Positions 2,275-25,280 are shown, numbered from the stretch's first letter. The stretch is DNA of 64,000 nt from Candidatus Omnitrophota bacterium (GCA_015232565.1 JADFZK010000001.1:77160-141159); one strand, 5' to 3'. Numbers and translations: made by a program. Notes: a model not told the origin generated them from the sequence alone.

Positions 2275-3159
2275 GTGTTTGTGCGTAAGACTAAAGGGAT
2301 AATTCTGGCTGGGGGCAAGGCTACGCGTTTGTATCCGATTACAAAAGTTGTTTGCAAGCAATTGTTGCCTGTTTTTGATAAGCCGATGATTTATTATCCT
2401 TTATCTGTTTTGTTGTTGGCGGATATTAGAGACATTCTAATTATTGTTAATCCAGATGACCTGCCTTTGTTTAAAGCTTTGTTAGGAGATGGTTCGGCAT
2501 TGGGGCTTACTATTGAATACGCCGTTCAGCCGGTACCTGCGGGAGTTGCGCAGGCGTTTCTTATCGGGGAAGCTTTTATTGGCCGCGATAATGTTTGTTT
2601 GATCCTGGGGGATAATGTTTTTTACGGCCACGGACTTCAAGCCATTTTACAGAGTGCGAAAGATAGGGCAGGAGCGAGCGTGTTTGCTTATACTGTCCGG
2701 GATCCTGAAAGATACGGAGTCGTGACCTTTGATACTGACGGAGTGGTCAGCAAGATCGAGGAGAAGCCTGATATGCCTGAGTCATCATGGGCGGTAACAG
2801 GGTTGTATTTCTTCGATAATGATGTGGTCGGATTTGCCAAGAAGGTGCGTCCTTCCCTAAGAGGGGAATTGGAGATAACCGATGTTCTCAAATGCTATCT
2901 TGATGAAGGTCGGTTGAATGTGTTTCCTTTTGGCCGGGGATATGCCTGGCTGGATACTGGAACGTATGAGTCCTTGGTGGATGCGGCTGTTTTTATTAAG
3001 ACGATCGAGGACCGACAGGGATTCAAGATCGGCTGTATTGAAGAGATCTCTTTTCAGAAGGGTTGGATATCGAAGGAGCAAGTTTTGGCGATTGCGCAGG
3101 GTTACAAAACGTCTTATGCCGATTATCTGCGTAAGATTGCTGGAGGAGCCATCGGATGA
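2275..3159 (+). CDS. rmlA: Glucose-1-phosphate thymidylyltransferase (long form, about 294 aa).
   Basis: It has [50 protein letters not shown], the canonical RmlA N-terminus. The length also matches RmlA. An AGGGGGTG ribosome-binding site lies upstream. Confidence 0.8.
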
Positions 3160-3980
3160 AAGATCTGGCTTATCAGATCAGGAGAATTATTCTGGAGCAG
3201 TCGTTTCGGGCGGGTGTCGGGCATATAGGTTCGGCCCTGTCTATAGCAGATATCCTGGCTTCTGTTTATGGGGATGTTCTGCGCGCTCGTTCACCTCGGG
3301 ATAAAGAAAGAGATGTGTTTATTCTTTCCAAAGGGCATGCAGCGCTTGCATTGTATGCGGCCTTATATTGCAGGGGGTGGCTTTCGAAGAAGAACCTGGG
3401 TACTTATTGCGGGGATGGCACGTGTTTAGGCGTTCATCCGGAGCACGGGCTACCTGGGATCGAATGCTCTACCGGATCGTTGGGCCAGGGGCTTTCCATG
3501 GGGGTTGGCATGGCACTGGCATTGAAAATGAAACGAAGCAAAGCAAGGGTTTTTATTGTTATAAGTGATGCCGAATATAATGAAGGTTCCCTTTGGGAAG
3601 CCGCCATGTTTGCCGCGCATCATCAATTGTCCAATATTTGCGTTATTGCTGATAATAATGGCCAGCAGGCTTTCGGGTATACTCGAGATGTTTTGAACGT
3701 TGCGCCTGTTGAGAATATATGGAAAGCGTTTGGATGGGGTGTTTATAGTGTCGATGGGCATGACCGCTTAGCTATTACGAGGACGATTAGAAAATCATTG
3801 AAGGTAAAGAACAGTCCGCATGTTATCATCGCTAATACCCAGCTGGGGTATGGTGTTTCTTATATGCAACGGCAAATAAAATGGCATTATTGGCCGATGA
3901 GTGACAAAGAGTACGGGCTGGCCTTGGAGGATATTAAGAAAGTCGGACTGAAGAAGTCACATGGAATAGGACGTGCCTGA
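3156..3980 (+). CDS. Transketolase, N-terminal (TPP-binding) subunit of a split transketolase.
   Basis: It has the motifs [29 protein letters not shown] and [15 protein letters not shown], the transketolase PP-domain signatures. It overlaps rmlA by 4 bp. Confidence 0.8.
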
Positions 3981-4908
3981 TATGCGAGACTCGTTTATCA
4001 AGACATTGATTGATTTGGCGCATAAGGACAAGAGGATCGTGCTTTTGACGGCAGATCTTGGGTATACTGTGCTCGAGTCTTTTCGGGATGTTTTCCCCGG
4101 CCGGTTTTTTAATGTGGGGGTGGCCGAGCAGAATATGGTCGGGGTGGCTACCGGGATGGCAATGCAGGGATTGATCCCGTTTGTTTATTCTATCGGTAAT
4201 TTTGCTGCTTTTCGTCCTTTTGAGTTTATTCGTAACGGCCCCGCAGGGCATGGCCTGCCTGTGCGTATTATAGGGGTTGGTGCCGGAGTAGATTATGGCA
4301 CAGCGGGGAAGAGTCACTGGACTTTGGAAGACGTGGGTGTATTGCGGAATTTGCTCGGGTTGCATATTGTTGTTCCGGCCGATCTTTTTCAGGCTCAATC
4401 TGCCTTGAAAAAAACGTGGGATCTTCCTGGGCCGGTCTATTACAGGATAGGGAAAGGCGATAAATCGGCATTGATTCCCGAAGGTTCTTTTGATCTTGGG
4501 AGAATTAATGTGCTTGCCAGAGGAGAAGATGTTCTTTTTGTTTCGATGGGAAGCGCGGTTAAGGAAGTGGTTAATGCGGTAGAGCTTCTTAGGAAAGACG
4601 GCATTTCATGTGGTGTTGCTGCAGTATCGAGTTTTAATCCTTTCCCGAATGCTGATCTGGTGCGCGTGATGGGGAAGGTTCGTTGGGTGGTTACGGTGGA
4701 GGATCATGTGGTTAATACCGGGTTGGGGGGAGCTGTTGCGCAGGCCATGGTATGTGGCTTAAGCAAAGCCCGCTTGCTATCGCTTGGGGTTACTTCGGCT
4801 GATCTTCCTAAGTCCGGGAGCAAAAAGTATCTTTATGAGCAAATGGGGTTGTCTTCCAACAAGATAGCATCGGCGGTCCGTCAGATTTTGAACAGGGAGC
4901 GTGGTTGA
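3973..4908 (+). CDS. Transketolase, C-terminal (Pyr plus C-domain) subunit.
   Basis: It has FFNVGVAEQNMVGVATGMAMQGLIPFVYSIGNFAAF, the transketolase pyrimidine-binding domain. It overlaps the N-subunit gene by 8 bp. Confidence 0.8.
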   Translation: MPDMRDSFIKTLIDLAHKDKRIVLLTADLGYTVLESFRDVFPGRFFNVGVAEQNMVGVATGMAMQGLIPFVYSIGNFAAFRPFEFIRNGPAGHGLPVRIIGVGAGVDYGTAGKSHWTLEDVGVLRNLLGLHIVVPADLFQAQSALKKTWDLPGPVYYRIGKGDKSALIPEGSFDLGRINVLARGEDVLFVSMGSAVKEVVNAVELLRKDGISCGVAAVSSFNPFPNADLVRVMGKVRWVVTVEDHVVNTGLGGAVAQAMVCGLSKARLLSLGVTSADLPKSGSKKYLYEQMGLSSNKIASAVRQILNRERG

Positions 4909-6350
4909 TGGGCCTAAAGGTTCTTTTTGTAATTGAAAAGATAGGTTTGCTGGATGTTATGTCCATTCCGGTCTTGGCGGCGGCAGTTAAACAGCATGGC
5001 CATCAGGTGCGATTGGCGGTTTATAATCAGGGTAAGATGGCGACTCGAGAGTTGTTGAGAACTTTTAAGCCGGATCTTGTCGCGTATTCTTTGACTTCAG
5101 AGGATTCGGGGCGGTATGTGGCGATCAATAGGGAGTTGAAAAAAGAAGAGAAATTCTTCGCAGTTTTCGGGGGGGCTCATCCGACGTTCTTCCCGGAATT
5201 TATACACGAAGACGGAGTTGACGCTATCTGCCTTGGAGAGGGCGATATTGTTTTTCCTGCATTGTTGGAGCGTTTTGGCTCCGAATCAATGTATGAGGTT
5301 GCTAATTTCCATTTCAAGAAGTCAGACGGGACGATACGGAAGAATCCATTATCCAATCTGGTGTCGGATCTCGACGTTTTGCCATTCCCGGACCGGGACA
5401 TTATTTTTCAGCAAAACACCTTTCTGGCGCAGAATCCGGTCAAGGCGTTTTTTGCCGGCCGAGGCTGTCCTTTTCAATGCACGTATTGTTTCAATCATTC
5501 TTATAACGAATTGTATCGCGGCAAGGGCCGGGTTATCAGGAATAAGAGTGTCGGGTACCTTATCAAAGAAATTAAAAGCGTTGCGGAGAGATACCCGGTA
5601 TCTTTTGTTAAATTCCATGACGATGTCTTTGGGTTTAATAAAGATTGGCTGGCTGAATTCACTGCGAGATATCCTCGGGAAATAGCCAAGCCTTTTCTCA
5701 GTTATGTGAATCCTTCTATGGTGACAGATGCGTATTGTCGGTCGTTAAAGGAGGCTGGATGTTTTTCTGTTTGCATGGCGTTTGAAAGCGGGAGCCGGCG
5801 TATCCGCGAAGAAATCCTTCATCGCCGGATGTCGGATCAGCAGATTATTGATGCTGCGGCTTTATGCAAAAGGCACGGCCTGCGGATATACACATTGAAC
5901 ATGATCGGGATTCCGGATGAAAGTGAAGCGGAGATTTGGGAAACGGTTGAGTTGAATCAGAAAGTGGATTCGGATTATGCTGATGCTTCGATCTTTCAAG
6001 CGTATCCTGGAACGTGGATCTCTACTTATTGTCGCGATAAGGGATTGTTGTCGGAGGATAAGGGAGGGTTTAACAGTCAGTTTTCGGGGTCGTCATTAAA
6101 CTTCTCGCAAGAATACAAGGTTAAACTTGAGATCATTCACCGTCTTTTTCCAATGTTGGTTGATTTACCCGGATTAGAAAAGGTTTATCCTTGGCTTGGC
6201 ACAAGTCGTTTTGTGAGGGGTCTTTTTCATTATTTGTACCGTTTTTATTACGGAGTATTCTTGCATCAGCGAATCTACGCGAATTCTATTCCGTTACGGC
6301 TGCAGCTTAAAGCTTTCATGACTCTTTTGTTTTCGAAGGACAGGGCTTAG
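4908..6350 (+). CDS. Cobalamin (B12)-binding radical SAM enzyme (class B).
   Basis: An N-terminal Rossmann-like B12-binding region (LKVLFVIEKIG ... HGHQVRLAVYN) is followed by the CxxxCxxC cluster motif FFAGRGCPFQCTYCFN. The ATG at 4908 overlaps the transketolase stop. Confidence 0.75.
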   Translation: MGLKVLFVIEKIGLLDVMSIPVLAAAVKQHGHQVRLAVYNQGKMATRELLRTFKPDLVAYSLTSEDSGRYVAINRELKKEEKFFAVFGGAHPTFFPEFIHEDGVDAICLGEGDIVFPALLERFGSESMYEVANFHFKKSDGTIRKNPLSNLVSDLDVLPFPDRDIIFQQNTFLAQNPVKAFFAGRGCPFQCTYCFNHSYNELYRGKGRVIRNKSVGYLIKEIKSVAERYPVSFVKFHDDVFGFNKDWLAEFTARYPREIAKPFLSYVNPSMVTDAYCRSLKEAGCFSVCMAFESGSRRIREEILHRRMSDQQIIDAAALCKRHGLRIYTLNMIGIPDESEAEIWETVELNQKVDSDYADASIFQAYPGTWISTYCRDKGLLSEDKGGFNSQFSGSSLNFSQEYKVKLEIIHRLFPMLVDLPGLEKVYPWLGTSRFVRGLFHYLYRFYYGVFLHQRIYANSIPLRLQLKAFMTLLFSKDRA

Positions 6351-6411
6351 GGATGATCCTGTGGATGGTAAATGGGGATTTAGTGGGACAAAAGAAGGGG
6401 ATATATTTAAT

Positions 6412-7104
6412 ATGCTGATTTCGATTGTTCTGCCGGTCTACAATCAGGCGGATCATATTCAACAAGTGATTGAGGAATATATGTTCTCTCTTAGGAATCT
6501 TACAGTTCCCTATGAGGCGATCTTGGTGGTCAATGGTTCGAAGGACCGGTCAATGGAGGTTTGTCTTGAATTGGCAGAGAAGTATCCTGTTGTCCGCGTT
6601 GTTGAGTCGCCTAAAGCCGGCTGGGGGGCGGCGGTGAGGTTTGGCATTGCCCAGGCAAAAGGGGAGCAGATCTGTTATACGAATACGGCGCGTACTCGAG
6701 GAAAGGATCTTTTGTTGTTTTTGTTGTATGGCATGGCGCATCAGGATACGGTAATTAAAGCGAACCGCAGAATTCGTGATGGGATAAGGCGGCGTATTGG
6801 GTCGCTGTTTTATAATCTTGAGGGACGGATGCTTTTTGATCTGTATAATTGGGATATTAATGGTACTCCCAAGGTTTTTCAGCGTCGTTGGACAGCGTTG
6901 CTGGAGATGAAGTCGGAAGATGATCTTATTGATTTGGAATTTTGCGTTTGCTGCAGGGAGAATGATCTGATGGTTTTGGAAGTACCGATCTTTTCAACCA
7001 GCCGCAAGAGCGGGCGGTCAACGACAGGTTTATTTTCAGCTTTAAAGTTGTATTGGGGCGCTTACAAACTATGGAAGTCGCGGTATGGTAAAAGGGATGT
7101 GTGA
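6412..7104 (+). CDS. Glycosyltransferase family 2.
   Basis: It has MLISIVLPVYNQADHIQQVIEEY, a GT2 N-terminus. An AAGGGGAT ribosome-binding site lies about 10 nt upstream of the ATG at 6412. Confidence 0.65.
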   Translation: MLISIVLPVYNQADHIQQVIEEYMFSLRNLTVPYEAILVVNGSKDRSMEVCLELAEKYPVVRVVESPKAGWGAAVRFGIAQAKGEQICYTNTARTRGKDLLLFLLYGMAHQDTVIKANRRIRDGIRRRIGSLFYNLEGRMLFDLYNWDINGTPKVFQRRWTALLEMKSEDDLIDLEFCVCCRENDLMVLEVPIFSTSRKSGRSTTGLFSALKLYWGAYKLWKSRYGKRDV

Positions 7105-8291
7105 TGATAAGTTCGTCAGGAAATGATCAAGTGTGGCGTAATCCGTTGCGAGTGGTGAATCAATTGGCGGATAGCTCTTTGATGGTTACTAAGAATCAGT
7201 TACAGCATAAAGTTGATGATGGATTCTGGGAGGCATTGGCCGCTACCGGGCTTTCCTTACTGGTTAGCCGGGAGTACGAACATTTCCTGTTGTGCCTGGG
7301 GTGCGGGAATAAAGGTCCAGATATTTCTTATATGTGCTTGCCTCATCCTTCGGGGATAGCGGTGGATAAGGAGCGTAGGTGTGTTTATGTGGCGAGTACG
7401 CGCAATCCGAATTTGGTTTATGAACTTGCGGCTTCAGCGGGCCTCCAGTCTCGGGCCGACCTCGGCCGTTTTGGGAAGAGGGCCGTTGAATTGGAAGGGT
7501 GCCTTATTCCTTGGCGGATATTTGTATATCCTGGAAGCTTGTATATTCATGATTTGGCATTGATTAAAGGGCGCTTGTTTGCGAACGCGGTGGCGCATAA
7601 TGCCGTGGTTCGTCTTGATGAGTCGGGGGGCGTGGAATATGCGTGGTGGCCGCGCTCGATGCAGCAAGGGAAGGGGCCTTGTACGGACCAGAACTTCCTG
7701 CAACTAAATTCTATTGCTGCGGGGCGGGATCTGGAGAGCTCGTTTTTTTCTGCTTCTTGTTCCGAGAAGGCAAAGTATCGTCCAGGTCATCGGTATTTTC
7801 GGGTCGATGGCGAGGGGGTTATATTCTCAGGAAGATCGGGAGATCCGGTATGCCGGGGATTGACTCGCCCGCATTCGGCTAGAATTCATCAGGGAAAGGT
7901 CTGGGTTGATAATAGTGGCTATGGACAGGTTGGTTTTGTTGATAAGGGAAGACTGAATGTGGTTGCCGCTCTGCCTGGATGGACTCGGGGATTGTTTTTT
8001 TGTGGGAATACGCTTTTTGTTGGTGTTTCACGTGTGTTGCCAAAATTCAGGCAGTACGCTCCGGGTTTGGATGTAAAAAAGAGCTTTTGCGGTATTTATG
8101 CTATTGATATTAATTCTGGTAAAACGATCGGCCGGCTTATTTGGCAAGAAGGGGATCAGATATTCGCGGTTGAAGGTTTGCCGCGGGAAATGGGGCGGGG
8201 GTTAATGTGTCCGGCCGGCCGGCCTTTGATGAACGAAGACGGCATAGGGAAGGCTTTTTACGGGTTCAATAAAACAACATGGAGAGGGTAG
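7101..8291 (+). CDS. Conserved hypothetical protein (396 aa, soluble, no motif recognised).
   Basis: It is a long uninterrupted ORF, translationally coupled to its neighbours by ATGA overlaps at both ends. Confidence 0.4.
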   Translation: MMISSSGNDQVWRNPLRVVNQLADSSLMVTKNQLQHKVDDGFWEALAATGLSLLVSREYEHFLLCLGCGNKGPDISYMCLPHPSGIAVDKERRCVYVASTRNPNLVYELAASAGLQSRADLGRFGKRAVELEGCLIPWRIFVYPGSLYIHDLALIKGRLFANAVAHNAVVRLDESGGVEYAWWPRSMQQGKGPCTDQNFLQLNSIAAGRDLESSFFSASCSEKAKYRPGHRYFRVDGEGVIFSGRSGDPVCRGLTRPHSARIHQGKVWVDNSGYGQVGFVDKGRLNVVAALPGWTRGLFFCGNTLFVGVSRVLPKFRQYAPGLDVKKSFCGIYAIDINSGKTIGRLIWQEGDQIFAVEGLPREMGRGLMCPAGRPLMNEDGIGKAFYGFNKTTWRG

Positions 8292-8295
8292 AAAG

Positions 8296-9222
8296 ATGGG
8301 AAAAGAATTCAAGTTGTTAATGCTTGGGGCAATGTATGAAAATGGCGGTAATACCACTCATCGTTTTCTTGATGGACATCCGCAGATGTGTGTTTATCCC
8401 TTTGAGTCCCAATTGGGATCCAGACTGGTGGTTGATCAAATGTCAACGCTATTTCCCCAGAAATATCGCTGGCCGGTTTTTCCTCTTGATGGCACGGCCT
8501 ACGGCGATTACAAGCTTATTATTGATGAGGAAGGGAAGGTGCGTTCGCGTACGCCTCAGGTTAGTAAATTCAGGCATGAGCCGTTTGATATGTCAGATGA
8601 TGAGCGTTGTGAAATCTATCAGAAATATATTGCGCGTCTTGGGCGGTCCCGGGCGCATAATATTGAAGCGTTCTTTAGAAGCACTTTTGATGCCTGGAAA
8701 GATTTCAACCGGACAGGCAGTGAGCAGTTTTATGTTGGATATTCTCCTGTTCTGGTTGTTGATGCGGACAAGATCCTTAATGATGTCCCTGGGGCTCATT
8801 TTCTTCATGTTGTGCGCAATCCATGGGCGGCGTATGCGGACACTAAGAAACGTCCGGTGCCTTTGTCGTTGGAGAATTATATGTTCTGTTGGAATATCAA
8901 CCAGTATTTTGCCTTGTTATGGAAAAAGAAATTCCCGGCCCGTTTTCATTTGATCAGGATCGAGGATGTTTTGGCTGGACCGCAAAAGACTTTGGGTGCG
9001 TTATGTCGCAAGCTTGGGTTAAAGACCAGCGAGACGCTCGGACGAGTAAGCTGGAACGGAAAAGTCTTAGAGGAAGTGTATCCATGGGGGACCATCCGTA
9101 AGCCTACAGCCGAGGCTAATCTCAAGACCGCTCAGGAGCTTTCTAAAGCTGAGATCCGCGAGATTGGCGAAAGGACTTGGCAGTATCTGGATGTGTTTGG
9201 GTATAAGGATTTTCTTAAATGA
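8296..9222 (+). CDS. Sulfotransferase-family protein (putative PAPS-dependent glycan sulfotransferase).
   Basis: FLHVVRNPWAAYADTKK resembles the 3'-phosphate-binding RDPRD...S motif of bacterial sulfotransferases. LLMLGAMYENGGNTT is a degenerate 5'-PSB-like loop. Confidence 0.45.
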   Translation: MGKEFKLLMLGAMYENGGNTTHRFLDGHPQMCVYPFESQLGSRLVVDQMSTLFPQKYRWPVFPLDGTAYGDYKLIIDEEGKVRSRTPQVSKFRHEPFDMSDDERCEIYQKYIARLGRSRAHNIEAFFRSTFDAWKDFNRTGSEQFYVGYSPVLVVDADKILNDVPGAHFLHVVRNPWAAYADTKKRPVPLSLENYMFCWNINQYFALLWKKKFPARFHLIRIEDVLAGPQKTLGALCRKLGLKTSETLGRVSWNGKVLEEVYPWGTIRKPTAEANLKTAQELSKAEIREIGERTWQYLDVFGYKDFLK

Positions 9223-10169
9223 AGCGAGTTAAGAAAGTCTTGATAACGGGGGCAAGCGGGTTTATTGGCGCTAACCTGGCCCGGGCTTTGTTGGCTCAGG
9301 GGCACGAGGTTCATGTCCTGTTGCGTCCCCAAGCGAGTCTGTGGCGCCTGCAGGGGGTGATGGCCTGTTTGCAAAAGCATGCCGTTAACCTGCAGGACGG
9401 TAAAAAGCTAGGACCATTGTTGGGCAAGATCGCGGCTGAATGGGTTTTTCATTTAGCGACATACGGCGCGTATTCCAGTCAGCAAGATATCGATACAGCA
9501 GTGCTAACTAATATAACCGGAATAAATCATTTGTTGCCTGCTGCGCTTGATGCGGGTTGCGAGTCTTTTGTTAATGTTGGTTCATCTTCAGAATACGGGT
9601 TCAAGGATCATGCGCCTAAAGAAAATGAGGTTTTGGAGCCGAACAGTCATTATGCCTTAACCAAAGCGTATGCTACGATGTTTTGTCGGCATACGTCCCT
9701 TACACGGGATCGGCATGTTGTGTCATTAAGGCCGTATTCGGTTTATGGTCCTTATGAAGAGCCGTCGCGGTTCATTCCGCAGTTGGTGTTAAGCGGGTTA
9801 AAAGGCGGGTATCCTCCGTTGGTTGGTCCCGGGGTGGCGCGTGATTATGTGTATGTGGATGATTTTGTGCGGGCTTGTATCTTGGCCGCGCAGAAAACGG
9901 ATCTACCGCGCGGCATGGTTTTTAATGTAGGTACTGGTCGACAGACCACGATTCGGCAGGCCGCGGACATAGCGCGTAAAATCTTCGGTATAGGGCGGTT
10001 GCCTGTTTTCGGCGGAATGGTGAACCGTGAGTGGGATACCAACGTCTGGGTTAGCGATAGTCGCTTGATCCGTCAATGGTTGGGCTGGGAGCCTGTGGTG
10101 GCATTCTCCGACGGTATCTTAAAGACGGTGGAATGGCTCGATCAAAACGGGGGCAAATGGAATGAATAG
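9219..10169 (+). CDS. NAD-dependent epimerase/dehydratase (extended SDR).
   Basis: It has the VLITGASGFIGANLARALLAQGHEV Rossmann motif and a YALTKAYA (YxxxK) catalytic motif. Confidence 0.75.
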   Translation: MKRVKKVLITGASGFIGANLARALLAQGHEVHVLLRPQASLWRLQGVMACLQKHAVNLQDGKKLGPLLGKIAAEWVFHLATYGAYSSQQDIDTAVLTNITGINHLLPAALDAGCESFVNVGSSSEYGFKDHAPKENEVLEPNSHYALTKAYATMFCRHTSLTRDRHVVSLRPYSVYGPYEEPSRFIPQLVLSGLKGGYPPLVGPGVARDYVYVDDFVRACILAAQKTDLPRGMVFNVGTGRQTTIRQAADIARKIFGIGRLPVFGGMVNREWDTNVWVSDSRLIRQWLGWEPVVAFSDGILKTVEWLDQNGGKWNE

Positions 10170-11802
10170 GGATCGTTGGATAGTCTTAACGGGGATTGTA
10201 GTTCTGCTGTCTTTTGCGATTGCCTGGGCTTGCCTGGCCGGGAGATTGACTCTTTGGTCCGATGAGCTTCCGCCTGTTCAAGCGGCTAAAGGTCTTTGGT
10301 TGACGGGCAAGCCTTTTTTGTATGATTTGGATATGGGTACGATAGGGGATAAACCCTATACACATGGGTACCCGATGTCCTTTCTGGGACAGTTTGTCTA
10401 CCGGGCGCTGGGTCACCCAAGTCTTTTTTGGTTTCGGGTTATTCCACTTTCTTTCGGGCTTGTGACCATTGTTTTCTTTTTGTTGTTCTTGAGATTCAGC
10501 GGCCTGGTGAACAGAGTGAAATTGTGGTTGTTGATTGCTTTGTTCTTCTCTTGCGCTATCGTTTTTGATAATTTGCTGTTTTACCGTTATTACACCCTGA
10601 TAGGGTTGTGCGCTTTGCTCAATCTGGTGGCTTTTTGGTATGGAGCGGCGGCGATCAAGGCTAGGTGTTGGTTGAAGGCGTTAATGTGGGCCCTTTTATT
10701 TATTGCCGCTTTTATTTATCCATTGGCCGGTCATTTGCAGATTGTCCATTGCGTGATTATTCCTGTGGCTGGGATTATATTGGCGTTCGGGTCCTCCGGC
10801 AGGTTGCGGGAATGGATCGTCTGTAGGCGAAAGATTCTGGTGTTTTTGGCGGCAGGCGCCGTCATTTTGTGGCCGCTCATTGTTTACGTGTGTGATCTTG
10901 GGCTTGCGCGTGTTGATGTCGGCGGAGGGGCGGTCTCCAGGACCTACATGACTATTTGGGATAATCTGTTCGGACTCGCACGGTTCGGTCTGGCCTTGAA
11001 TATTGTGATCCTGGCGGCAGTCTGGTGGGTTCGTGACAGGCAGGACAAGGCCCTGAATTTGGAAACGTTTTTGTGTTTGACCGGTGTTATTTCGGGATTA
11101 TTGATTGGATTCTGTAATCCGCATCATATGATCTTTCTGGCAAGATACTATTATGTTTCTGCCATGCTGGCTGTCCTTGGGGCTCCTGCGATACTGTTGG
11201 AAATGTGTCGTAATGGCCGCAAATTGGGCTGGTTGCTGGGGATGTTTCTTGTTATAAATTTTGCGTTAATTGCGGTGACAATGACACTGGAGCGTGACAA
11301 TATTGATCGTGCGGTCTCTTGGGTTGAGCAGAATCTGAGGCCAGATGATACGCTTTTATGCGGCCTGATCGAGTTTGAAGTTCATGGCGGGACAAACTTG
11401 GTTGGGCGTGCCCACCGTGTTGAGGCGTCCGAAGACATCCGGTCGGTGTCTCGTTTGCGGGCATTCCTTGAAGGGCAACCGTCGACCAGGGTTCTTTTGA
11501 TTTATGTTGACGCGTATCATCCTCGGGACACGCTTTATCATTGGACAACAGGTGAAAGTCGAGATCCGGTTTCTTCATTGGATGTATTTATGAGGATCAA
11601 GGCGGTTGGGAAGGATGCAGCTTATGGTCTTCGTAATTGTGGCGTGAGGGAATTTGACAGGCTGGCGCTGATTGATCAATTGCGCACGTTGGAGAAAACT
11701 GGGTTTGAGGCCCATTTTAAGGGCCTGGAAAAGCGTTGGGCCAAAAGGATATTTCAACATCTAAAGTTGTGGATCCAGGGGCGCTTCAACGGAGCACAAT
11801 GA
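10162..11802 (+). CDS. Multi-pass membrane GT-C-type glycosyltransferase (ArnT/PMT, GT39/GT83-like).
   Basis: It has more than 10 predicted TM helices. The first extracytoplasmic loop carries the acidic motif RLTLWSDELPPVQAAKGLWLTGKPF typical of the ArnT/PMT family. It has a large soluble C-terminal domain. Confidence 0.55.
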   Translation: MNRDRWIVLTGIVVLLSFAIAWACLAGRLTLWSDELPPVQAAKGLWLTGKPFLYDLDMGTIGDKPYTHGYPMSFLGQFVYRALGHPSLFWFRVIPLSFGLVTIVFFLLFLRFSGLVNRVKLWLLIALFFSCAIVFDNLLFYRYYTLIGLCALLNLVAFWYGAAAIKARCWLKALMWALLFIAAFIYPLAGHLQIVHCVIIPVAGIILAFGSSGRLREWIVCRRKILVFLAAGAVILWPLIVYVCDLGLARVDVGGGAVSRTYMTIWDNLFGLARFGLALNIVILAAVWWVRDRQDKALNLETFLCLTGVISGLLIGFCNPHHMIFLARYYYVSAMLAVLGAPAILLEMCRNGRKLGWLLGMFLVINFALIAVTMTLERDNIDRAVSWVEQNLRPDDTLLCGLIEFEVHGGTNLVGRAHRVEASEDIRSVSRLRAFLEGQPSTRVLLIYVDAYHPRDTLYHWTTGESRDPVSSLDVFMRIKAVGKDAAYGLRNCGVREFDRLALIDQLRTLEKTGFEAHFKGLEKRWAKRIFQHLKLWIQGRFNGAQ

Positions 11803-20048: not shown

Positions 20049-21158
20049 ATGGCTGTTAATATTAGAAAGCTTACAACGTTTGCCCGATTCGCAATAATTA
20101 AGGCGGCCCCTTTTTTGTGGCCTGTTATGGCACTTCGTCCGTATTCTGCGACGATCAATATTACGGATAATTGCTGCCTTAAGTGTGTGATGTGTAATCA
20201 ATGGCAGACGTATCATAAAGATGAGCTGAGCAAGGATGAGTGGATGCGGATTCTGGGTGAGTTGTATGTCTGCGGGGTGCGGGAGATCAATTTGACTGGT
20301 GGTGAACCGTTGTGCCGATCCGATATTTTCGAGATCATTGCCGAGGCCGTTCGATTGGGGATCAAGGTCGGTGTGTCCTCAAATGGTGATATGATCGATG
20401 ATGAGATGGCAGATCAATTGCTCAGGTTAGGGGTTAAGGATATTACTATATCGGTTGATGCGATAGGGCTCGAGTATGACCGTTTACGCGGGGTTAAAGG
20501 GGCGTACCAAAGGGTTTATCGGGCTTTGGAGATACTGTCTGCCTATAACCGGGACCGGAGGATGTCGGTGCTGGTGGCATTTGTTTTGATGAAAGACACG
20601 TTGACTTCCTATAAGGAAGTGGTGAACGCTGTTAGCCCTCTGGGCATTCCTGTTGTTGTTAATTTGTTTGATACGAGTCCGTATTTCTTTCAGATCAAGG
20701 GAGCTAGGGAGAGGTTTTGGGTGACGGAAAAAGAGATGTCGCGGTTGGCGGACTTGCAACAGTTTTTTGTTGAGCAAATCCAGATAGCTTCGGTGTTCAC
20801 CAAGCATCGTTTTGTGGACATTGATTTCTTTAAACGCTATTTTCGGGATCCACTACAGAAGGATCTTCCTTGTTATGTTTCCCAAATTCGTTTGAACATA
20901 GGTCCTAAAGGGCAGATCTTTGGCGGATGTTGGTCTTTGGGTGTTCATGGCGATTTACGCAAGAATCGGCTTCAGGAGATACTCAAGTCCAAGGCTTATC
21001 GTGCGATCCAGCAGAAAATGTTCAATAAGCAGTGCCCGGGGTGTTCGTGTGGCTATATTACAACGTTAAATTATTCTTTAGGTAATTGGGTAAAGGAACT
21101 TGTTTATCGTGCTTTTCCATCGGCACGGAGGGGAATTTATGCTGGTGTCAAAAAATAA
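20049..21158 (+). CDS. Radical SAM enzyme with a Cys-rich C-terminal (SPASM/twitch-like) region.
   Basis: It has NITDNCCLKCVMCNQW, a CxxxCxxC motif with an extra Cys. Additional Cys residues lie near the C-terminus (NKQCPGCSCGY). Confidence 0.6.
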   Translation: MAVNIRKLTTFARFAIIKAAPFLWPVMALRPYSATINITDNCCLKCVMCNQWQTYHKDELSKDEWMRILGELYVCGVREINLTGGEPLCRSDIFEIIAEAVRLGIKVGVSSNGDMIDDEMADQLLRLGVKDITISVDAIGLEYDRLRGVKGAYQRVYRALEILSAYNRDRRMSVLVAFVLMKDTLTSYKEVVNAVSPLGIPVVVNLFDTSPYFFQIKGARERFWVTEKEMSRLADLQQFFVEQIQIASVFTKHRFVDIDFFKRYFRDPLQKDLPCYVSQIRLNIGPKGQIFGGCWSLGVHGDLRKNRLQEILKSKAYRAIQQKMFNKQCPGCSCGYITTLNYSLGNWVKELVYRAFPSARRGIYAGVKK

Positions 21159-21277: not shown

Positions 21278-22222
21278 ATGTGGAGAATGATGCGATCACT
21301 TGAAATAAAGCCGCATGGACTTATGTTCCATCATTTTTATAACGAGAAGCATTGCCGGGGGCAGGGGGCTATATCTATTGGCCAGTTTGAGGCTGTCCTG
21401 ACTCATTACGAGAAGCACATCCTTTCGGCTGAGGAGTGGTTTAATAGGGCGGTGAGCAACTCGTTAAAGGATCATGATATTTGCTTGACCTTTGATGATG
21501 CGTTATTGTGCCAGTATGAGGTTGCACTTCCGGTGTTGGAGCGGTATGGTTTGACCGCGTTCTGGTTTGTTTATTCCTCCGTGCTGGACGGAGGTTTGGA
21601 GAAACTAGAGATCTACCGGAAATTCAGGACAGTGTGTTATGCATGTATTGATGACTTTTATTTGGATTTCTTCTCGCGGGTGAAGGCTTCGGCTTATAAT
21701 GACGCAGTGGAGTTGGCGTTAAAAGGATATGCACATGACAATTGGAAGTATTGTCCGTTTTATTCTCCTAATGACACAAAGTTCAGGTATATAAGAGATG
21801 TTGCTTTGGGTGTTGATAAGTACCAGGAACTTATGGACAGGATGATTTGCGAACAAGGGATAGATTTGGCTTCTTTTGCTTCTGATCTGTGGATGACGAA
21901 AGAACATGTTAGGAGTTTGTGTGCACGCGGGCATGTCATAGGGTTACATTCGCATACTCATCCGACTGTTCTGGCTGATCTGCCCGCGACCGAACAGCAA
22001 AAAGAATATGGACAGAATTACCGGTTTCTTAGAGATCTTCTTGGTAAAAGCCCGGAAGTGGTCTCGCATCCTTGTAATTCTTATAATGTGGAGACTTTGA
22101 AGATCCTGGCTGCGCTTGGTATTCGGTTGGGGTTTCGGGCTAACATGGCAGATCATCAATATTCAAGGTTTGAATTCGCGCGGGAAGATCACGCGAATGT
22201 GATCCGGAGGATCGGGCAATGA
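21278..22222 (+). CDS. Polysaccharide deacetylase family (NodB-homology) protein; possible de-N-acetylase or deformylase.
   Basis: It has ICLTFDDALLCQYEVALPVLERYGLTAFWF, the NodB motif 1 (TFDD), followed by His-containing motifs HSHTHP. Confidence 0.7.
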   Translation: MWRMMRSLEIKPHGLMFHHFYNEKHCRGQGAISIGQFEAVLTHYEKHILSAEEWFNRAVSNSLKDHDICLTFDDALLCQYEVALPVLERYGLTAFWFVYSSVLDGGLEKLEIYRKFRTVCYACIDDFYLDFFSRVKASAYNDAVELALKGYAHDNWKYCPFYSPNDTKFRYIRDVALGVDKYQELMDRMICEQGIDLASFASDLWMTKEHVRSLCARGHVIGLHSHTHPTVLADLPATEQQKEYGQNYRFLRDLLGKSPEVVSHPCNSYNVETLKILAALGIRLGFRANMADHQYSRFEFAREDHANVIRRIGQ

Positions 22223-23013: not shown

Positions 23014-23055
23014 AGTTCGTTTCTGGATCAGGCGTACAAGATAAGGAGAGGAATA

Positions 23056-25068
23056 ATGAACGTAGCTTTATTGGATCTCAACCATTTTACCCGCGGCGTG
23101 ACGAATAACACGGTGCCTCTTGGTCTGGGTATGATAGCCGCCTTTTTACGCAAACGGATCGGGGGTGCTCTGGACATCAGGATTTTCAAGGATACCAGCA
23201 AGGCCCTGGGTGTGTTTGCATCCTGGACTCCTGACGTGATCGGTCTTGCGCAGTATGTCTGGAACAGTGAACTCAATTTGTCCGTTGCCCGCATTGTTAA
23301 AGACAGGAATCCGCGTTGTTTTGTCGTCGTTGGTGGCCCTAACCTGGATTTGTCTGCGGCCCGGCGGATGCAGTATTTTATTGACCACCCGTTAGTGGAT
23401 GCCGGGATCCTTTATGATGGGGAGATCCCTTTTGCCGGGCTGGTTGGGAGGCTTATGGCCGGGGAGTCGCGGGAAAGCATCTGCCTGACCCCTTCGGCTG
23501 GTATGTACTCGTTTGACAGGAAAGAGAATGCTTTGCGGGAATCAGCCGAACCGCCGCCGCGTCTTTCCAGTCTTGACGAGATAGGGGCGATCTATGCCGA
23601 GGGCGTTTTTGACGAGTTTCTGAATGTTGGCTGTCATCCATTTCTGCAAACACATCGCGGGTGTCCTTTTACGTGTACGTTTTGCCATACTAGCGATTCC
23701 TATTATTCTCGGATGCTTTTTCTTTCCCCTGAGATATTTCGGCGTGAGATGGAGTGCCTGGGTAAACGCTATGCTGGCCGGCATGACGTGACCCTTTTTC
23801 TGGCCAACACGAATATGTCGCTTTTCCCGGAAGATTTTACGATCGCCGGGATCATTCGCGAGACTCAGGAGAAATACGATTGGCCGCGCAACATCAGCGT
23901 TAATTCGGGCAAAGATCCCAAGAAGTTGCTGGCAATGATGGATATACTCCGTTTTCAACCATCGATCGCACTTCAGACTTTGACGCCAGCTGTCCTGAAA
24001 AATATTAAAAGAATTAATATTCCTTTTGATAATTTTGTGTCTTTTCAGCGCGCAGTCCTTAAAGAGACCGGTGCCCCGTCGGTTACCGAATTGATCTTGT
24101 GTCTTCCAGGAGAGACCCGGGCCAGCTTTCTTGAAACGTTGTGCAGGGTGCTTAATTCCGGGGTTCAGTCGGTAGTGATCTATACGCTCATGTCGCTTAA
24201 AGGGACGGAACTGGTTTCGGAAGAGAGCATCCGTAAATATCGTTTCGATATTCGCCACAGGGTTGTTCCCCGGCAGTTTAGCGTTGTGTCTGGCCGGAAA
24301 GTTCTTGACACCGAGGCGGTTGTCGTAGCGACGGATACGATGTCCTTCGGAGATTATTTGGAATTACGGGGATTGTGTTTTACTGTGACCACGTTTTATA
24401 GTTCCCTTGAGTTGATGCCTATCAAGAAATTGCTCTTGGAAAGCGGTGTGGATGTTTCAGCTTGGGTGCTGGGCATTCACGCGCGATGTGCTCAGTTTCC
24501 TGATCTTGCGTATTATCATGATGAATTTATCAAGGAGACCCAGGCTGAACTATTTTTAACCCGGGAAGCGCTGACGGACTTTTTTGAGGATCCCCGGCAT
24601 TGGGAGGATCTGTGCCAGGGGCTTTACGGGGATAACCTTACGCGTAAGTATAAACAGTTGGTATTGACGAAATGTTATAAGACGCTGCTGGAAGTTGCTT
24701 TGTCCGAGGCAAGGGATTTGCTAGCCGCGAAGCTCCTGCCTGATATGCTCGAAGATCTTTTGCGTGATCTTAGGTCTTATTTGTCGGTCAGGGACGTACG
24801 GGACATTTTTGAAGGGACTTTGTCCCTTGAAGACAGGGTTGTAACTGTTGCGTATAATATTCCGTTATGGATGATGAACTCCAATCCCGCTCTTGGAATG
24901 AACGATTTTCGGGGCAGGACTTCATACCGGGTGATTTATCCTGTTGATATAAAGGAGAAAGCCCAGGAATTCGCGAGGTCGAATAAAGACAAGGAGTTGT
25001 CGTTGCAGATCATGTATCGCGATGGACTTATCAGTGATTTCTGGCCAAGATGGATTGAGAGCAAATGA
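23056..25068 (+). CDS. Large cobalamin (B12)-binding radical SAM enzyme (670 aa).
   Basis: An N-terminal B12-binding-like domain (VIGLAQYVWNSELN ... FVVVGGPNLD) is followed by HRGCPFTCTFCHTS (CxxxCxxC) and a long C-terminal extension. Confidence 0.7.
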   Translation: MNVALLDLNHFTRGVTNNTVPLGLGMIAAFLRKRIGGALDIRIFKDTSKALGVFASWTPDVIGLAQYVWNSELNLSVARIVKDRNPRCFVVVGGPNLDLSAARRMQYFIDHPLVDAGILYDGEIPFAGLVGRLMAGESRESICLTPSAGMYSFDRKENALRESAEPPPRLSSLDEIGAIYAEGVFDEFLNVGCHPFLQTHRGCPFTCTFCHTSDSYYSRMLFLSPEIFRREMECLGKRYAGRHDVTLFLANTNMSLFPEDFTIAGIIRETQEKYDWPRNISVNSGKDPKKLLAMMDILRFQPSIALQTLTPAVLKNIKRINIPFDNFVSFQRAVLKETGAPSVTELILCLPGETRASFLETLCRVLNSGVQSVVIYTLMSLKGTELVSEESIRKYRFDIRHRVVPRQFSVVSGRKVLDTEAVVVATDTMSFGDYLELRGLCFTVTTFYSSLELMPIKKLLLESGVDVSAWVLGIHARCAQFPDLAYYHDEFIKETQAELFLTREALTDFFEDPRHWEDLCQGLYGDNLTRKYKQLVLTKCYKTLLEVALSEARDLLAAKLLPDMLEDLLRDLRSYLSVRDVRDIFEGTLSLEDRVVTVAYNIPLWMMNSNPALGMNDFRGRTSYRVIYPVDIKEKAQEFARSNKDKELSLQIMYRDGLISDFWPRWIESK

Positions 25069-25280
25069 CATTAATATCTGTAAGCCTCAAAAAGAAAGAA
25101 GTGGTTCGTTGAAGTCGATTGTTTGATGCCTGTTGGCACGATATTGGCTGGAAATAGGTCTGGGATTCTTTGATCTCGAGAAATATCTGCCCTGATCGTA
25201 AGACGGCGTAGTTTCGCCGGCAAGTTTGTTAAGTGATCAACGAAGAAGCTGTTTGCACAATCTAATGTAATGAGGTGTTC

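What the first reader, a model, noticed from the sequence alone, without database searches (positions are those of the whole stretch)
4908..6350. Two cobalamin-binding radical SAM enzymes in a polysaccharide locus (first copy)
Class B (B12-dependent) radical-SAM enzymes typically carry out C-methylation or other reactions at unactivated carbons. Two copies in a glycan locus (here and at 23056-25068) predict C-methylated or otherwise rearranged sugars. These are rare in bacterial surface polysaccharides and biosynthetically interesting. They also imply an anaerobic, cobalamin-using organism, consistent with the Fd-fused EtfA/Bcd elsewhere in the window.
Basis: partly seen in the sequence, partly recalled or inferred. 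Interest (0 to 1): 0.65.

Follow-up and report, generated by a model that had tools for sequence, protein, structure and literature searches.

The report
B12-type radical SAM in glycan cassette
The gene is a real, intact radical SAM enzyme with a cobalamin-type domain, of unknown reaction, inserted into a widespread but undescribed sugar-tailoring gene cassette in an Omnitrophota surface-polysaccharide locus; sequence alone cannot tell whether it methylates a sugar.

Summary
Observation confirmed. ORF 4908-6350 (+), 480 aa, has a Pfam B12-binding domain (55 bits, cutoff 32.1), a Radical_SAM core (75 bits) and the motif C187-x3-C191-x2-C194. Its predicted fold (pLDDT 91) is that of class I B12 radical SAM enzymes. 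It lies in a ~37 kb surface-glycan locus of an Omnitrophota MAG.

Interpretation partly supported. It reaches no named family's cutoff: HpnJ scores 112 bits against 578, and the best PDB match is the cobalamin-free sugar dehydratase AprD4. It belongs to a huge uncharacterised subfamily (12,929 50%-identity clusters at E<=1e-30). C-methylation is only a base-rate guess.

The "two copies" are distant paralogues (24% identity over 167 aa). The second, at 23056-25068, is TokK/CysS-like and keeps the methylase Trp motif, so it is the better C-methyltransferase candidate.

New context: the gene is translationally coupled inside a conserved cassette. The order is split transketolase, GT2, DUF4915 beta-propeller, sulfotransferase-like protein and SDR, followed by a GT-C-like membrane protein. 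Aerobic cyanobacteria carry this cassette without any radical SAM gene. Close orthologues flank the cassette in two other arrangements, but others are orphans or sit in acyl-CoA clusters.

B12 radical SAM genes are common in glycan-like loci of uncultured anaerobes, not rare.

The parts
4908..6350 (+). rSAM1: 480-aa radical SAM enzyme with an N-terminal cobalamin-type Rossmann domain, a radical SAM barrel and a C-terminal helical domain. This is the finding.
   Evidence: ORF. Pfam PF02310 at 55 bits and PF04055 at 75 bits. AF2 model pLDDT 91.4. Foldseek matches to MgmA, TsrM, AprD4, CysS, OxsB and TokK.
4895..4910 (+). Ribosome-binding site GGGAG (4895-4899) and ATG start (4908-4910). The ATG overlaps the TGA stop (4906-4908) of the transketolase C-subunit gene, which indicates translational coupling.
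   Evidence: Read directly from the sequence.
4962..5267 (+). Cobalamin-type Rossmann domain, residues 19-120. Conserved features are (Y/F)60-(S/T)61, F-G-G-x-H-x-T at 87-93 and G-E-G-(D/E) at 110-113.
   Evidence: Pfam. Conservation in 31 and 102 homologues. The domain aligns to the cobalamin domains of TokK, OxsB, MgmA and 4Q37.
5466..5489 (+). [4Fe-4S]/SAM-binding motif C187-P-F-Q-C191-T-Y-C194, followed by a nearly invariant F195-N196.
   Evidence: The cysteines are invariant. N196 aligns to TokK Trp215, which sits two residues after the third Cys.
3156..3980 (+). Cassette gene 1: transketolase N-terminal (ThDP-binding) subunit.
   Evidence: Pfam Transketolase_N at 125 bits. It is 58-64% identical to the same gene in cassette loci L086 and L169-L174.
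3973..4908 (+). Cassette gene 2: transketolase C-terminal (pyrimidine-binding) subunit.
   Evidence: Pfam Transket_pyr and Transketolase_C. It is 45-52% identical in the cassette loci.
6361..7104 (+). Cassette gene 3: small GT2 without transmembrane segments. It is inferred to be a polyprenyl-phosphate sugar synthase. The true start may be the ATG at 6412.
   Evidence: Pfam Glycos_transf_2. Weak NCBIfam matches to ArnC, PgfS, AglJ and PpgS. It is 48-57% identical in the cassette loci.
7101..8291 (+). Cassette gene 4: DUF4915/TIGR03032-like protein, a predicted 6-bladed beta-propeller of unknown function.
   Evidence: Pfam DUF4915 at 179 bits. AF2 pLDDT 89.9. Only generic propeller matches in the PDB. 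A 100% identical Omnitrophica entry, P0241, exists.
8296..9222 (+). Cassette gene 5: Sulfotransfer_3-like protein, very strongly conserved (68-77% identity across phyla).
   Evidence: Pfam at 38 bits. There are 3,990 homologues at E<=1e-20. A 100% identical entry, P0121, comes from a Candidatus Omnitrophica MAG.
9219..10169 (+). Cassette gene 6: NAD-dependent SDR epimerase/dehydratase.
   Evidence: Pfam Epimerase at 151 bits. It is 38-56% identical in the cassette loci.
10162..11802 (+). Polytopic membrane protein with about 11 transmembrane segments plus a C-terminal soluble domain. It is inferred to be the GT-C-type transferase that uses the lipid-linked sugar.
   Evidence: No Pfam or NCBIfam hit. 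Hydropathy scan. The same position is occupied by YfhO, PMT_2 or large unknown membrane proteins in L086 and L169-L172.
2275..3159 (+). RmlA (glucose-1-phosphate thymidylyltransferase), which overlaps the start of the transketolase N-subunit gene.
   Evidence: TIGR01207 at 433.8 bits, above the cutoff of 360.65.
23056..25068 (+). rSAM2: 670-aa TokK/CysS/KedN5-like B12 radical SAM enzyme.
   Evidence: TokK at 108.7 bits and CysS at 91.6 bits, with the 'YVWN' motif (TokK Trp76) conserved. Only 24% identical to rSAM1.
20049..21158 (+). Third radical SAM enzyme of the locus, of the SPASM/twitch type.
   Evidence: Pfam Radical_SAM at 94.7 bits plus SPASM. No NCBIfam cutoff is reached.

Best explanation
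rSAM1 is a functional class-B-architecture radical SAM enzyme. In this Omnitrophota genome it most likely serves as an accessory tailoring enzyme of a conserved sugar-modification cassette. The cassette is split transketolase, GT2, DUF4915 beta-propeller, sulfotransferase-like protein and SDR, followed by a GT-C-like membrane transferase.

Proposed mechanism. The reduced [4Fe-4S] cluster on C187/C191/C194 cleaves SAM to the 5'-deoxyadenosyl radical. That radical abstracts a hydrogen from an unactivated carbon of the cassette's sugar, which is either nucleotide-linked or polyprenyl-phosphate-linked. The substrate radical is then resolved with the help of the cofactor in the N-terminal Rossmann domain.

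The single most likely outcome is C-methylation from methylcobalamin, at about 40-45%. A non-methylating outcome, such as dehydration or ring rearrangement as in AprD4 or HpnJ, is almost as likely.

Shown: gene integrity, domain architecture, fold, cluster motif, operon position, and recurrence of the gene next to the cassette. Inferred: cobalamin binding, the sugar substrate, the lipid-linked route, and the reaction outcome.
For: Architecture and fold. The cobalamin-domain motifs are conserved across 102 homologues and align with the cobalamin domains of TokK, OxsB and MgmA.

Operon integration: the ATG overlaps the TK_C stop, and the GT2 gene follows after 10 nt. GC and GC3 are like those of the neighbours.

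Cassette conservation: the cassette keeps the same order in a cyanobacterium (L169, no radical SAM gene), L170, L171 and L172.

Recurrent linkage: rSAM1 orthologues (51% identity) adjoin the cassette in two further arrangements. One is directly upstream on the same strand (L173/L174). The other is divergently transcribed next to a reshuffled cassette (L086).

Other support: unrelated B12 radical SAM genes flank or interrupt the cassette in L172 and L173, which suggests repeated recruitment of such tailoring enzymes in anaerobes. The neighbour census of the wider family is dominated by radical SAM enzymes and glycosyltransferases. The base rate favours methylation, because every characterised group of the B12 radical SAM network contains C-methyltransferases, including sugar methylases such as GenK and MoeK5 (PMC12931638).
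Against: No named family's cutoff is met, and the nearest models are the non-methylating HpnJ and, in the PDB, AprD4.

The positions aligned to TokK Trp76 and Trp215 are Glu65 (Gly or Asn in the family) and an invariant Asn196. These are unlike the hydrophobic residues described for radical methylases (PMC12931638). The loop alignment behind this comparison is uncertain.

Orthologues of 49-71% identity are orphans (L001, L003, L087) or sit in acyl-CoA metabolism clusters (L006, and L088 with an enoyl-CoA hydratase upstream).

The cassette appears in only one of about 160 loci retrieved through family similarity.

The cassette works without any radical SAM gene in cyanobacteria, so rSAM1 is not essential to it.
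Confidence: 0.42

Rival explanations
1. The substrate context is the same (the cassette's sugar), but the chemistry is non-methylating. After hydrogen abstraction the sugar radical undergoes 1,2-diol dehydration (AprD4-like deoxygenation, completed by an SDR), ring contraction or rearrangement (HpnJ- or OxsB-like), or oxidation. The Rossmann domain either holds cobalamin as an electron sink or holds no cobalamin at all.
For: HpnJ is the best NCBIfam model for all 31 clade members, with best E 5e-40. AprD4 is the best PDB sequence match of the core, at 103 bits with the family profile against 65 for MgmA and 41 for TokK. Both enzymes act on amino-sugar rings. The residues aligned to TokK's methylase-type Trp76 and Trp215 are polar or small. 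AprD4 shows that a Rossmann domain need not bind cobalamin (PMC12931638). An SDR gene is part of the cassette.
Against: All scores are far below the family cutoffs: 111.6 against 577.6 for HpnJ and 63.6 against 500 for AprD4. The N-terminal domain passes Pfam's B12-binding cutoff and aligns with true cobalamin domains, whereas the AprD4 alignment covers only the core, residues 152-392. The cassette's SDR is present even where no radical SAM gene is. Most characterised members of the superfamily are methylases.
Confidence: 0.3
2. rSAM1 does not act on the glycan at all. It modifies some other cellular molecule, such as a lipid, cofactor, protein or small acyl-CoA-derived metabolite, and its position in the cassette reflects shuffling within a glycan island.
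For: Orthologues lie next to ribosomal protein genes (L003), a GlcD/CCG-type oxidase and UvrC (L001), unrelated genes in a Bacteroidota MAG (L087), and enoyl-CoA hydratase, amidohydrolase and 2-hydroxyacyl-CoA dehydratase genes (L006, L088). P0002, an orphan, is 71% identical to the cassette-adjacent P0011. Related NCBIfam hits include lipid-modifying enzymes such as the ladderane enzyme and HpnR.
Against: The gene is linked to the cassette in three different gene arrangements in two lineages (window, L086, L173/174). Start and stop codons overlap inside the operon. The wider family is enriched for glycosyltransferase, GT-C, DegT and further radical SAM neighbours. Orphan genomes may carry the cassette elsewhere, which was not testable here.
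Confidence: 0.2
3. rSAM1 is an anaerobic substitute for an oxygen-dependent step that aerobic cassette owners perform with an enzyme encoded elsewhere. This would be analogous to BchE versus AcsF, or HemN versus HemF.
For: The cassette without any radical SAM gene occurs in an oxygenic cyanobacterium. Cassette loci from anaerobe-type metagenome bins carry one or two B12 radical SAM genes at variable positions.
Against: The sample is only seven cassette loci. L171 comes from the same MAG as L172 and lacks any radical SAM gene. The radical SAM genes near different cassettes belong to different subfamilies, at about 23% identity, which fits optional decoration better than a fixed pathway step.
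Confidence: 0.08

Closest known systems
HpnJ (TIGR03471), the hopanoid-associated B12-type radical SAM protein implicated in converting the glucosaminyl group of bacteriohopanetetrol to a cyclitol ether
   Same: It has the same length class (472 against 480 aa) and the same two-domain order. It is the best-scoring named model for the window protein and for all 31 close homologues. It acts on a lipid-linked amino sugar made by a GT2, which parallels the GT2 next to rSAM1. The HpnJ chemistry is from established knowledge, and the review lists it under non-methyl or unknown transformations.
   Different: The score is 111.6 bits against a cutoff of 577.6. The window holds no hopanoid genes, and the neighbours are a transketolase-containing glycan cassette.
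AprD4 (PDB 6FD2), the radical SAM 1,2-diol dehydratase of apramycin biosynthesis
   Same: It is the best PDB sequence match of the radical SAM core and C-terminal part, at E 4e-15 with the single sequence and 1.6e-28 with the family profile. The overall fold is similar, with TM about 0.64. Its substrate is a sugar ring.
   Different: The AprD4 alignment stops at residue 152, so its cobalamin-free N-terminal domain does not match by sequence. rSAM1's N-terminal domain passes Pfam's B12-binding cutoff. The NF033070 score is 63.6 against a cutoff of 500.
MgmA/QCMT (PDB 9CCB), TokK, CysS, TsrM and OxsB: structurally defined class I B12 radical SAM enzymes
   Same: The domain order and fold are the same, with Foldseek probability 1.0 and TM 0.61-0.65. 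The GG...GEG(E/D) region aligns with MgmA and TokK.
   Different: Identity is 14-20%. TokK's lower-axial Trp76 and stacking Trp215 are replaced by Glu65 and Asn196. There is no extra N- or C-terminal domain of the OxsB or TokK type.
Sugar C-methylating B12 radical SAM enzymes of antibiotic pathways (GenK, GenD1, Fms7, MoeK5)
   Same: They are a precedent for cobalamin radical SAM methylation of unactivated sugar carbons (listed in PMC12931638).
   Different: They belong to secondary-metabolite pathways. rSAM1 matches the methylase subfamily models only weakly (KedN5 at 50 bits against 700). rSAM2 at 23056-25068 is closer to this type.
Three-component lipid-carrier glycosylation systems (CsbB/GtcA/YfhO, GtrB/GtrA/GtrC, ArnC/ArnT)
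   Same: The cassette pairs a small GT2 with a large polytopic membrane protein. That protein is annotated YfhO or PMT_2 in L172, L086 and L171.
   Different: No flippase was identified. The transketolase, beta-propeller and sulfotransferase-like genes have no counterpart in those systems. The assignment is an inference, not a test.

Membership tests
Class B (cobalamin-type) radical SAM enzymes | CxxxCxxC cluster motif within a radical SAM (partial TIM barrel) domain | tested here: met
   C187/C191/C194 are invariant. PF04055 scores 75 bits against a cutoff of 29.5.
Class B (cobalamin-type) radical SAM enzymes | N-terminal Rossmann-type B12-binding domain | tested here: met
   PF02310 scores 55 bits against a cutoff of 32.1. 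The domain aligns to the cobalamin domains of TokK, OxsB, MgmA and 4Q37. The (Y/F)-(S/T), GG and GEG(E/D) motifs are conserved.
Class B (cobalamin-type) radical SAM enzymes | Overall fold of the structurally defined class I enzymes | tested here: met
   Foldseek matches 9CCB, 6WTE, 9N1B, 5UL2 and 7KDY at TM 0.61-0.65. The cobalamin-free AprD4 matches equally well.
Class B (cobalamin-type) radical SAM enzymes | Actual binding of cobalamin | not testable with these tools
   AprD4 and ArsL show that the domain alone is not proof (PMC12931638).
Radical C-methyltransferases within class B (TokK/CysS/KedN5 type) | Hydrophobic residue under the corrin (TokK Trp76) and between the corrin and the cluster (TokK Trp215) | tested here: not met
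   By profile alignment these positions are Glu65 (Gly or Asn in the family) and an invariant Asn196. The loop alignment is uncertain. rSAM2, by contrast, keeps 'YVWN'.
Radical C-methyltransferases within class B (TokK/CysS/KedN5 type) | NCBIfam NF033712 score of at least 700 | tested here: not met
   rSAM1 scores 50.4 bits and rSAM2 scores 121.7 bits.
HpnJ (TIGR03471) | Model score of at least 577.6 | tested here: not met
   The score is 111.6 bits. The best E-value among 31 homologues is 5e-40, still far below the cutoff.
HpnJ (TIGR03471) | Hopanoid gene neighbourhood (hpn genes, squalene-hopene cyclase) | tested here: not met
   No such genes occur among the annotated ORFs of the window.
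AprD4 family diol dehydratases (NF033070) | Model score of at least 500 | tested here: not met
   The score is 63.6 bits.
BchE (TIGR02026) | Model score of at least 481 | tested here: not met
   The score is 53.6 bits. The 'anaerobic Mg-protoporphyrin cyclase' names on homologues are automatic labels.
Conserved TK_N-TK_C-GT2-DUF4915-Sulfotransfer_3-SDR cassette (undescribed) | All six genes present in that order | tested here: met
   The window spans 3156-10169, with rSAM1 inserted after TK_C. The same order is seen in L169, L171, L172 and L173.
Conserved TK_N-TK_C-GT2-DUF4915-Sulfotransfer_3-SDR cassette (undescribed) | A radical SAM gene as a constant member | tested here: not met
   It is absent from L169, L170 and L171. 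Other subfamilies occupy that role in L172.

The most novel reading that the evidence does not exclude
rSAM1-clade enzymes are anaerobe-specific add-ons to a widespread, undescribed envelope-glycosylation cassette. They would install a C-methyl or rearranged branch on a lipid-linked sugar that a GT-C enzyme then transfers to the cell surface. This would be the first cobalamin-type radical SAM enzyme shown to act in cell-surface glycan assembly, and it would give a route into the function of the roughly 4,000-member cassette.
Probability: 0.3. Interest if true: 0.7.

Novelty: new member of a known kind. Interest (0 to 1): 0.5.

Why it matters
If rSAM1 does tailor the cassette's sugar, it would extend cobalamin radical SAM chemistry from antibiotics, lipids and cofactors to bacterial surface glycans. 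It would also predict unusual C-branched or deoxygenated sugars on Omnitrophota and other uncultured anaerobes.

The cassette itself is conserved in gene order from cyanobacteria to Omnitrophota. Its sulfotransferase-like protein is about 70% identical across phyla, and no paper in the searched library mentions its DUF4915 member. The cassette may be the larger open question, and rSAM1 gives a way to approach it experimentally.

As it stands, the finding is a sound annotation with an unresolved reaction, not a surprise for specialists.

Tried and rejected
- **Family assignment.** NCBIfam scans of the protein and of 31 homologues reached no cutoff.
- **Fold search of the model against the PDB.** All class I B12 radical SAM structures and the cobalamin-free AprD4 scored alike, so it did not discriminate.
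- **Locating the lower-axial residue from coordinates.** I used HMM alignments to TokK and OxsB instead. These disagree by two residues, so I treat the result as weak.
- **Looking up the window's own contig through its 100% identical sulfotransferase-like protein.** No record was found.
- **Literature searches.** 'DUF4915' and 'TIGR03032' returned nothing. Searches on radical SAM with polysaccharide and C-methyl terms, and on transketolase in glycan clusters, gave nothing specific. The one relevant item was an Actinoplanes EPS cluster with an uncharacterised split transketolase.
- **DUF4915 structure.** It is a confident 6-bladed beta-propeller with only generic matches, so it gave no functional lead.
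- **Rfam scan for a cobalamin riboswitch.** No hit of any family.
- **Recent horizontal insertion of rSAM1.** Rejected as a visible signal, because its GC and GC3 are like those of its neighbours.
- **BchE and YgiQ names on homologues.** Rejected as automatic labels.
Full report

Yes. The + strand carries an ORF from ATG 4908 (an in-frame TTG lies at 4905) to the stop at 6348-6350, giving 480 aa. The ATG shares its A with the TGA stop (4906-4908) of the preceding gene, and a GGGAG lies at 4895-4899. The gene is therefore translationally coupled to its upstream neighbour.

Pfam finds a B12-binding domain at residues 19-120 (E 8.8e-15, 55 bits, cutoff 32.1). It also finds a Radical_SAM domain at residues 184-349 (E 1.1e-20, 75 bits). 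The cluster motif C187-x3-C191-x2-C194 is invariant in 31 close homologues and 102 wider ones.

An AlphaFold2 model built on the 31-sequence alignment is confident, with mean pLDDT 91.4 and pTM 0.90. It shows a five-stranded Rossmann domain, a radical SAM barrel and a C-terminal helical domain. Foldseek matches it to MgmA/QCMT (9CCB), TsrM, AprD4, CysS, OxsB and TokK at probability 1.0 and TM 0.61-0.65.

**2. The surroundings.**

The first ~37 kb of the window, almost all on the + strand, is a surface-polysaccharide locus. In order it contains:
- a SIS/GmhA-like protein, an inositol-monophosphatase-family protein and a 2-hydroxyacid dehydrogenase;
- RmlA (above its NCBIfam cutoff), then the genes discussed below;
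- a hexapeptide acyltransferase and GT2 enzymes;
- RmlB (TIGR01181 at 420 bits, cutoff 365), a second nucleotidyltransferase, SDRs, a GT4 and membrane proteins;
- a SPASM-type radical SAM enzyme (20049-21158);
- a polysaccharide deacetylase and a formyltransferase-like protein;
- the second B12-type radical SAM enzyme (23056-25068);
- more GT2 and SDR genes, a WecG-type GT, a Bac_transf initiating transferase, Gmd, an Fcl-like SDR and a Wzy_C protein.

Housekeeping genes follow: pgk, tpi, secG, an Opp-type transporter, bcd, etfB, a ferredoxin-fused etfA and smc.

Two neighbouring proteins have 100% identical database entries from a 141,577-bp contig of a Candidatus Omnitrophica MAG. This identifies the source phylum. 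rSAM1 itself has no database relative above 55% identity.

**3. The two 'copies'.**

rSAM1 and the enzyme at 23056-25068 share only 24% identity over 167 residues. The second protein aligns to TokK (E 2.5e-30) and CysS (E 3.8e-25). It keeps the 'YVWN' motif whose Trp is TokK's lower-axial Trp76. Its best NCBIfam model is the KedN5-type methylcobalamin C-methyltransferase subfamily, at 121.7 bits and well below the cutoff.

rSAM2 is therefore the more credible C-methyltransferase. rSAM1 belongs to a different subfamily.

**4. What family is rSAM1?**

None that has a name. The best NCBIfam model is HpnJ, at 111.6 bits against a cutoff of 577.6. It is followed by ApyD, the ladderane-lipid enzyme, MJ_1487, a P-methyltransferase, AprD4, MgmA, BchE and HpnR, all far below their cutoffs. 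The ranking holds for all 31 close homologues.

Against PDB sequences the best match is AprD4, at E 4e-15 with the single sequence and 1.6e-28 with the family profile. That alignment covers only the core, residues 152-392. MgmA, TokK, CysS, OxsB and 4Q37 align with the N-terminal domain.

A profile search of 1.84 billion cluster representatives finds 12,929 at E<=1e-30, but only four above 600 bits. rSAM1 is thus a small clade within a very large subfamily in which I found no characterised member.

A 2026 review (PMC12931638) makes three relevant points. Non-methylating enzymes such as BchE, HpnJ, the ladderane enzyme and ThnL sit in the largest network group and cannot be told from methylases by sequence. 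AprD4 and ArsL have a Rossmann domain but bind no cobalamin. Radical methylases place a hydrophobic residue under the corrin (TokK Trp76), and usually another between the corrin and the cluster (TokK Trp215).

By profile alignment those positions are Glu65 (Gly or Asn in the family, next to a conserved Thr/Ser64) and a nearly invariant Asn196. This leans away from a TokK-type methylase. The evidence is weak, because the TokK-based and OxsB-based alignments of this loop differ by two residues.

**5. Genomic context of relatives.**

Close orthologues (49-55% identity to rSAM1, up to 89% among themselves) occur in mixed contexts:
- Some are orphans: next to a GlcD/CCG-type oxidase and UvrC in a Desulfomonile MAG (L001), next to rplM/rpsI (L003), and in a Bacteroidota MAG (L087).
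- Some lie beside an enoyl-CoA hydratase (L088), or within an acyl-CoA cluster with amidohydrolase, SDR and 2-hydroxyacyl-CoA dehydratase genes (L006).
- One lies in a multi-radical-SAM glycan locus that also holds an rSAM2 homologue (L005).
- One is divergent from a block of genes that matches the window's neighbours (L086).

For the wider family (33-42% identity; Anaerolineae, Omnitrophota, Desulfobacterota, DPANN archaea, CPR), I scanned the 142 immediate neighbours of 75 loci. The commonest Pfam families were Radical_SAM (18, of which 13 have a B12 domain), GT4-type (9) and GT2 (8) glycosyltransferases, methyltransferases (about 5), SPASM (3), PMT_2 (3), DegT (2) and TMEM260-like (2).

B12 radical SAM genes are therefore a recurrent, though uncharacterised, component of glycan-like loci in uncultured anaerobes.

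**6. The cassette.**

A search with the sulfotransferase-like neighbour (8296-9222) returned 3,990 proteins at E<=1e-20. They are 68-77% identical across Cyanobacteria, Chloroflexota, Acidobacteriota and Omnitrophota.

In the cyanobacterium Leptothermofonsia sichuanensis the gene sits in the order TK_N, TK_C, GT2, DUF4915, Sulfotransfer_3, SDR, then a large unknown protein. This is exactly the window's order from 3156 to 11802, except that the window has rSAM1 between TK_C and GT2.

The same order recurs in L170, L171 and L172, with 45-76% identity per protein. The following gene is a YfhO, PMT_2 or unannotated polytopic membrane protein. The window's counterpart (10162-11802) has about 11 predicted transmembrane segments and a soluble C-terminal domain.

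The last context look-up showed an rSAM1 orthologue (51% identity) directly upstream of the cassette on the same strand in L173/L174. A different B12 radical SAM gene is inserted there between the sulfotransferase-like and SDR genes. L172 carries two further, unrelated B12 radical SAM genes around its cassette, at about 23% identity to rSAM1.

The rSAM1 clade therefore adjoins the cassette in three different arrangements in two lineages. The cassette itself does not need a radical SAM gene. Among about 160 loci fetched through family similarity, only one carries the cassette, so the link is confined to the closest clade.

DUF4915 is predicted with confidence (pLDDT 89.9) to be a six-bladed beta-propeller with many invariant His, Arg and Glu residues. 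It has only generic structural matches. No paper in the searched library mentions DUF4915 or TIGR03032.

**7. Most likely mechanism.**

Shown: the gene is intact and co-transcribed, it has the class-B architecture, and it recurs next to a conserved sugar-tailoring cassette.

Inferred: it binds a [4Fe-4S] cluster and SAM, and probably cobalamin. It generates the 5'-deoxyadenosyl radical and abstracts a hydrogen from an unactivated carbon of the cassette's sugar. That sugar may be nucleotide-linked, or polyprenyl-phosphate-linked if the small GT2 and the GT-C-like protein work as in CsbB/YfhO- or ArnC/ArnT-type systems.

The outcome is unresolved. I put C-methylation first on base rates, at about 40-45%. 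A non-methylating dehydration or rearrangement is a close second at about 30%, supported by the nearest homologues HpnJ and AprD4 and by the polar residues at the TokK Trp positions. A role unrelated to the glycan has about 20%, supported by the orphan and acyl-CoA contexts.

**8. Novelty and score.**

The protein is a new member of a known kind. It is a class-B-architecture radical SAM enzyme from a huge uncharacterised subfamily. I found no precedent, in the papers searched or from my own knowledge, for a B12 radical SAM enzyme in cell-surface glycan assembly. That makes the hypothesis worth testing.

Nothing about the sequence itself is surprising, and the reaction cannot be predicted. The conserved cassette is the most interesting by-product of this work. 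Interest 0.5.

Noticed in passing
window 3156-11802 (also L169, L170, L171, L172, L173, L086): A conserved, apparently undescribed cassette: split transketolase (N and C subunits), small GT2, DUF4915 beta-propeller, Sulfotransfer_3-like protein and SDR, usually followed by a GT-C-like membrane protein. The order is the same from cyanobacteria to Omnitrophota. The sulfotransferase-like protein is 68-77% identical across phyla, with 3,990 homologues at E<=1e-20. No paper in the library mentions DUF4915 or TIGR03032.
   Followed up: partly
window 8296-9222 and 7101-8291: These two proteins have 100% identical database entries from a 141,577-bp Candidatus Omnitrophica MAG contig. rSAM1, encoded between them and the transketolase genes, has no database relative above 55% identity, and the contig is not on record in the gene-position index.
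   Followed up: partly
window 20049-21158: A third radical SAM enzyme in the locus, of the SPASM/twitch type. It reaches no named family's cutoff. SPASM radical SAM genes also recur in homologous glycan-like loci (20 genes in 12 loci).
   Followed up: partly
window 21278-25068: A polysaccharide deacetylase and a formyltransferase-like gene lie directly upstream of the TokK/CysS-like rSAM2. The pair is reminiscent of ArnD and the formyltransferase part of ArnA. It suggests an amino-sugar that is formylated, deformylated and possibly C-methylated.
   Followed up: no
L005 2551-13027: One metagenomic locus holds homologues of both window enzymes (rSAM2-like at 33% identity, rSAM1-like at 51%). It also holds a further B12 radical SAM gene, two SPASM enzymes, NeuB, DegT, WbqC, PIG-L and a YfhO-like protein, which looks like a nonulosonic-acid-type glycan locus.
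   Followed up: no
L006 9081-15988 and L088 4357-6665: Two rSAM1 orthologues (53% and 49% identity) lie directly downstream of an enoyl-CoA hydratase. In L006 an amidohydrolase, an SDR and two 2-hydroxyacyl-CoA dehydratase D-component genes follow. This second recurrent context is not glycan-related.
   Followed up: partly
window 56665-63303: A 2,212-aa ORF whose only Pfam match is a single HATPase_c domain (residues 1006-1115). Long proteins are a reported trait of Omnitrophota.
   Followed up: no
window 1-64000: Nearly all sizeable ORFs are on the + strand. GC skew is positive in every 2-kb bin and the cumulative skew rises monotonically, so the whole window lies on one replichore's leading strand. 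G+C is about 47-49% in the glycan locus and about 52-55% in the housekeeping part (32-58 kb).
   Followed up: no
window 13337-15172, 25275-26711, 28567-30081: Three ORFs of 478-611 aa inside the glycan locus have no Pfam or NCBIfam match. They may be Wzx-, Wzy- or GT-C-like membrane proteins.
   Followed up: no
This is consistent with an anaerobic lifestyle.
   Followed up: yes
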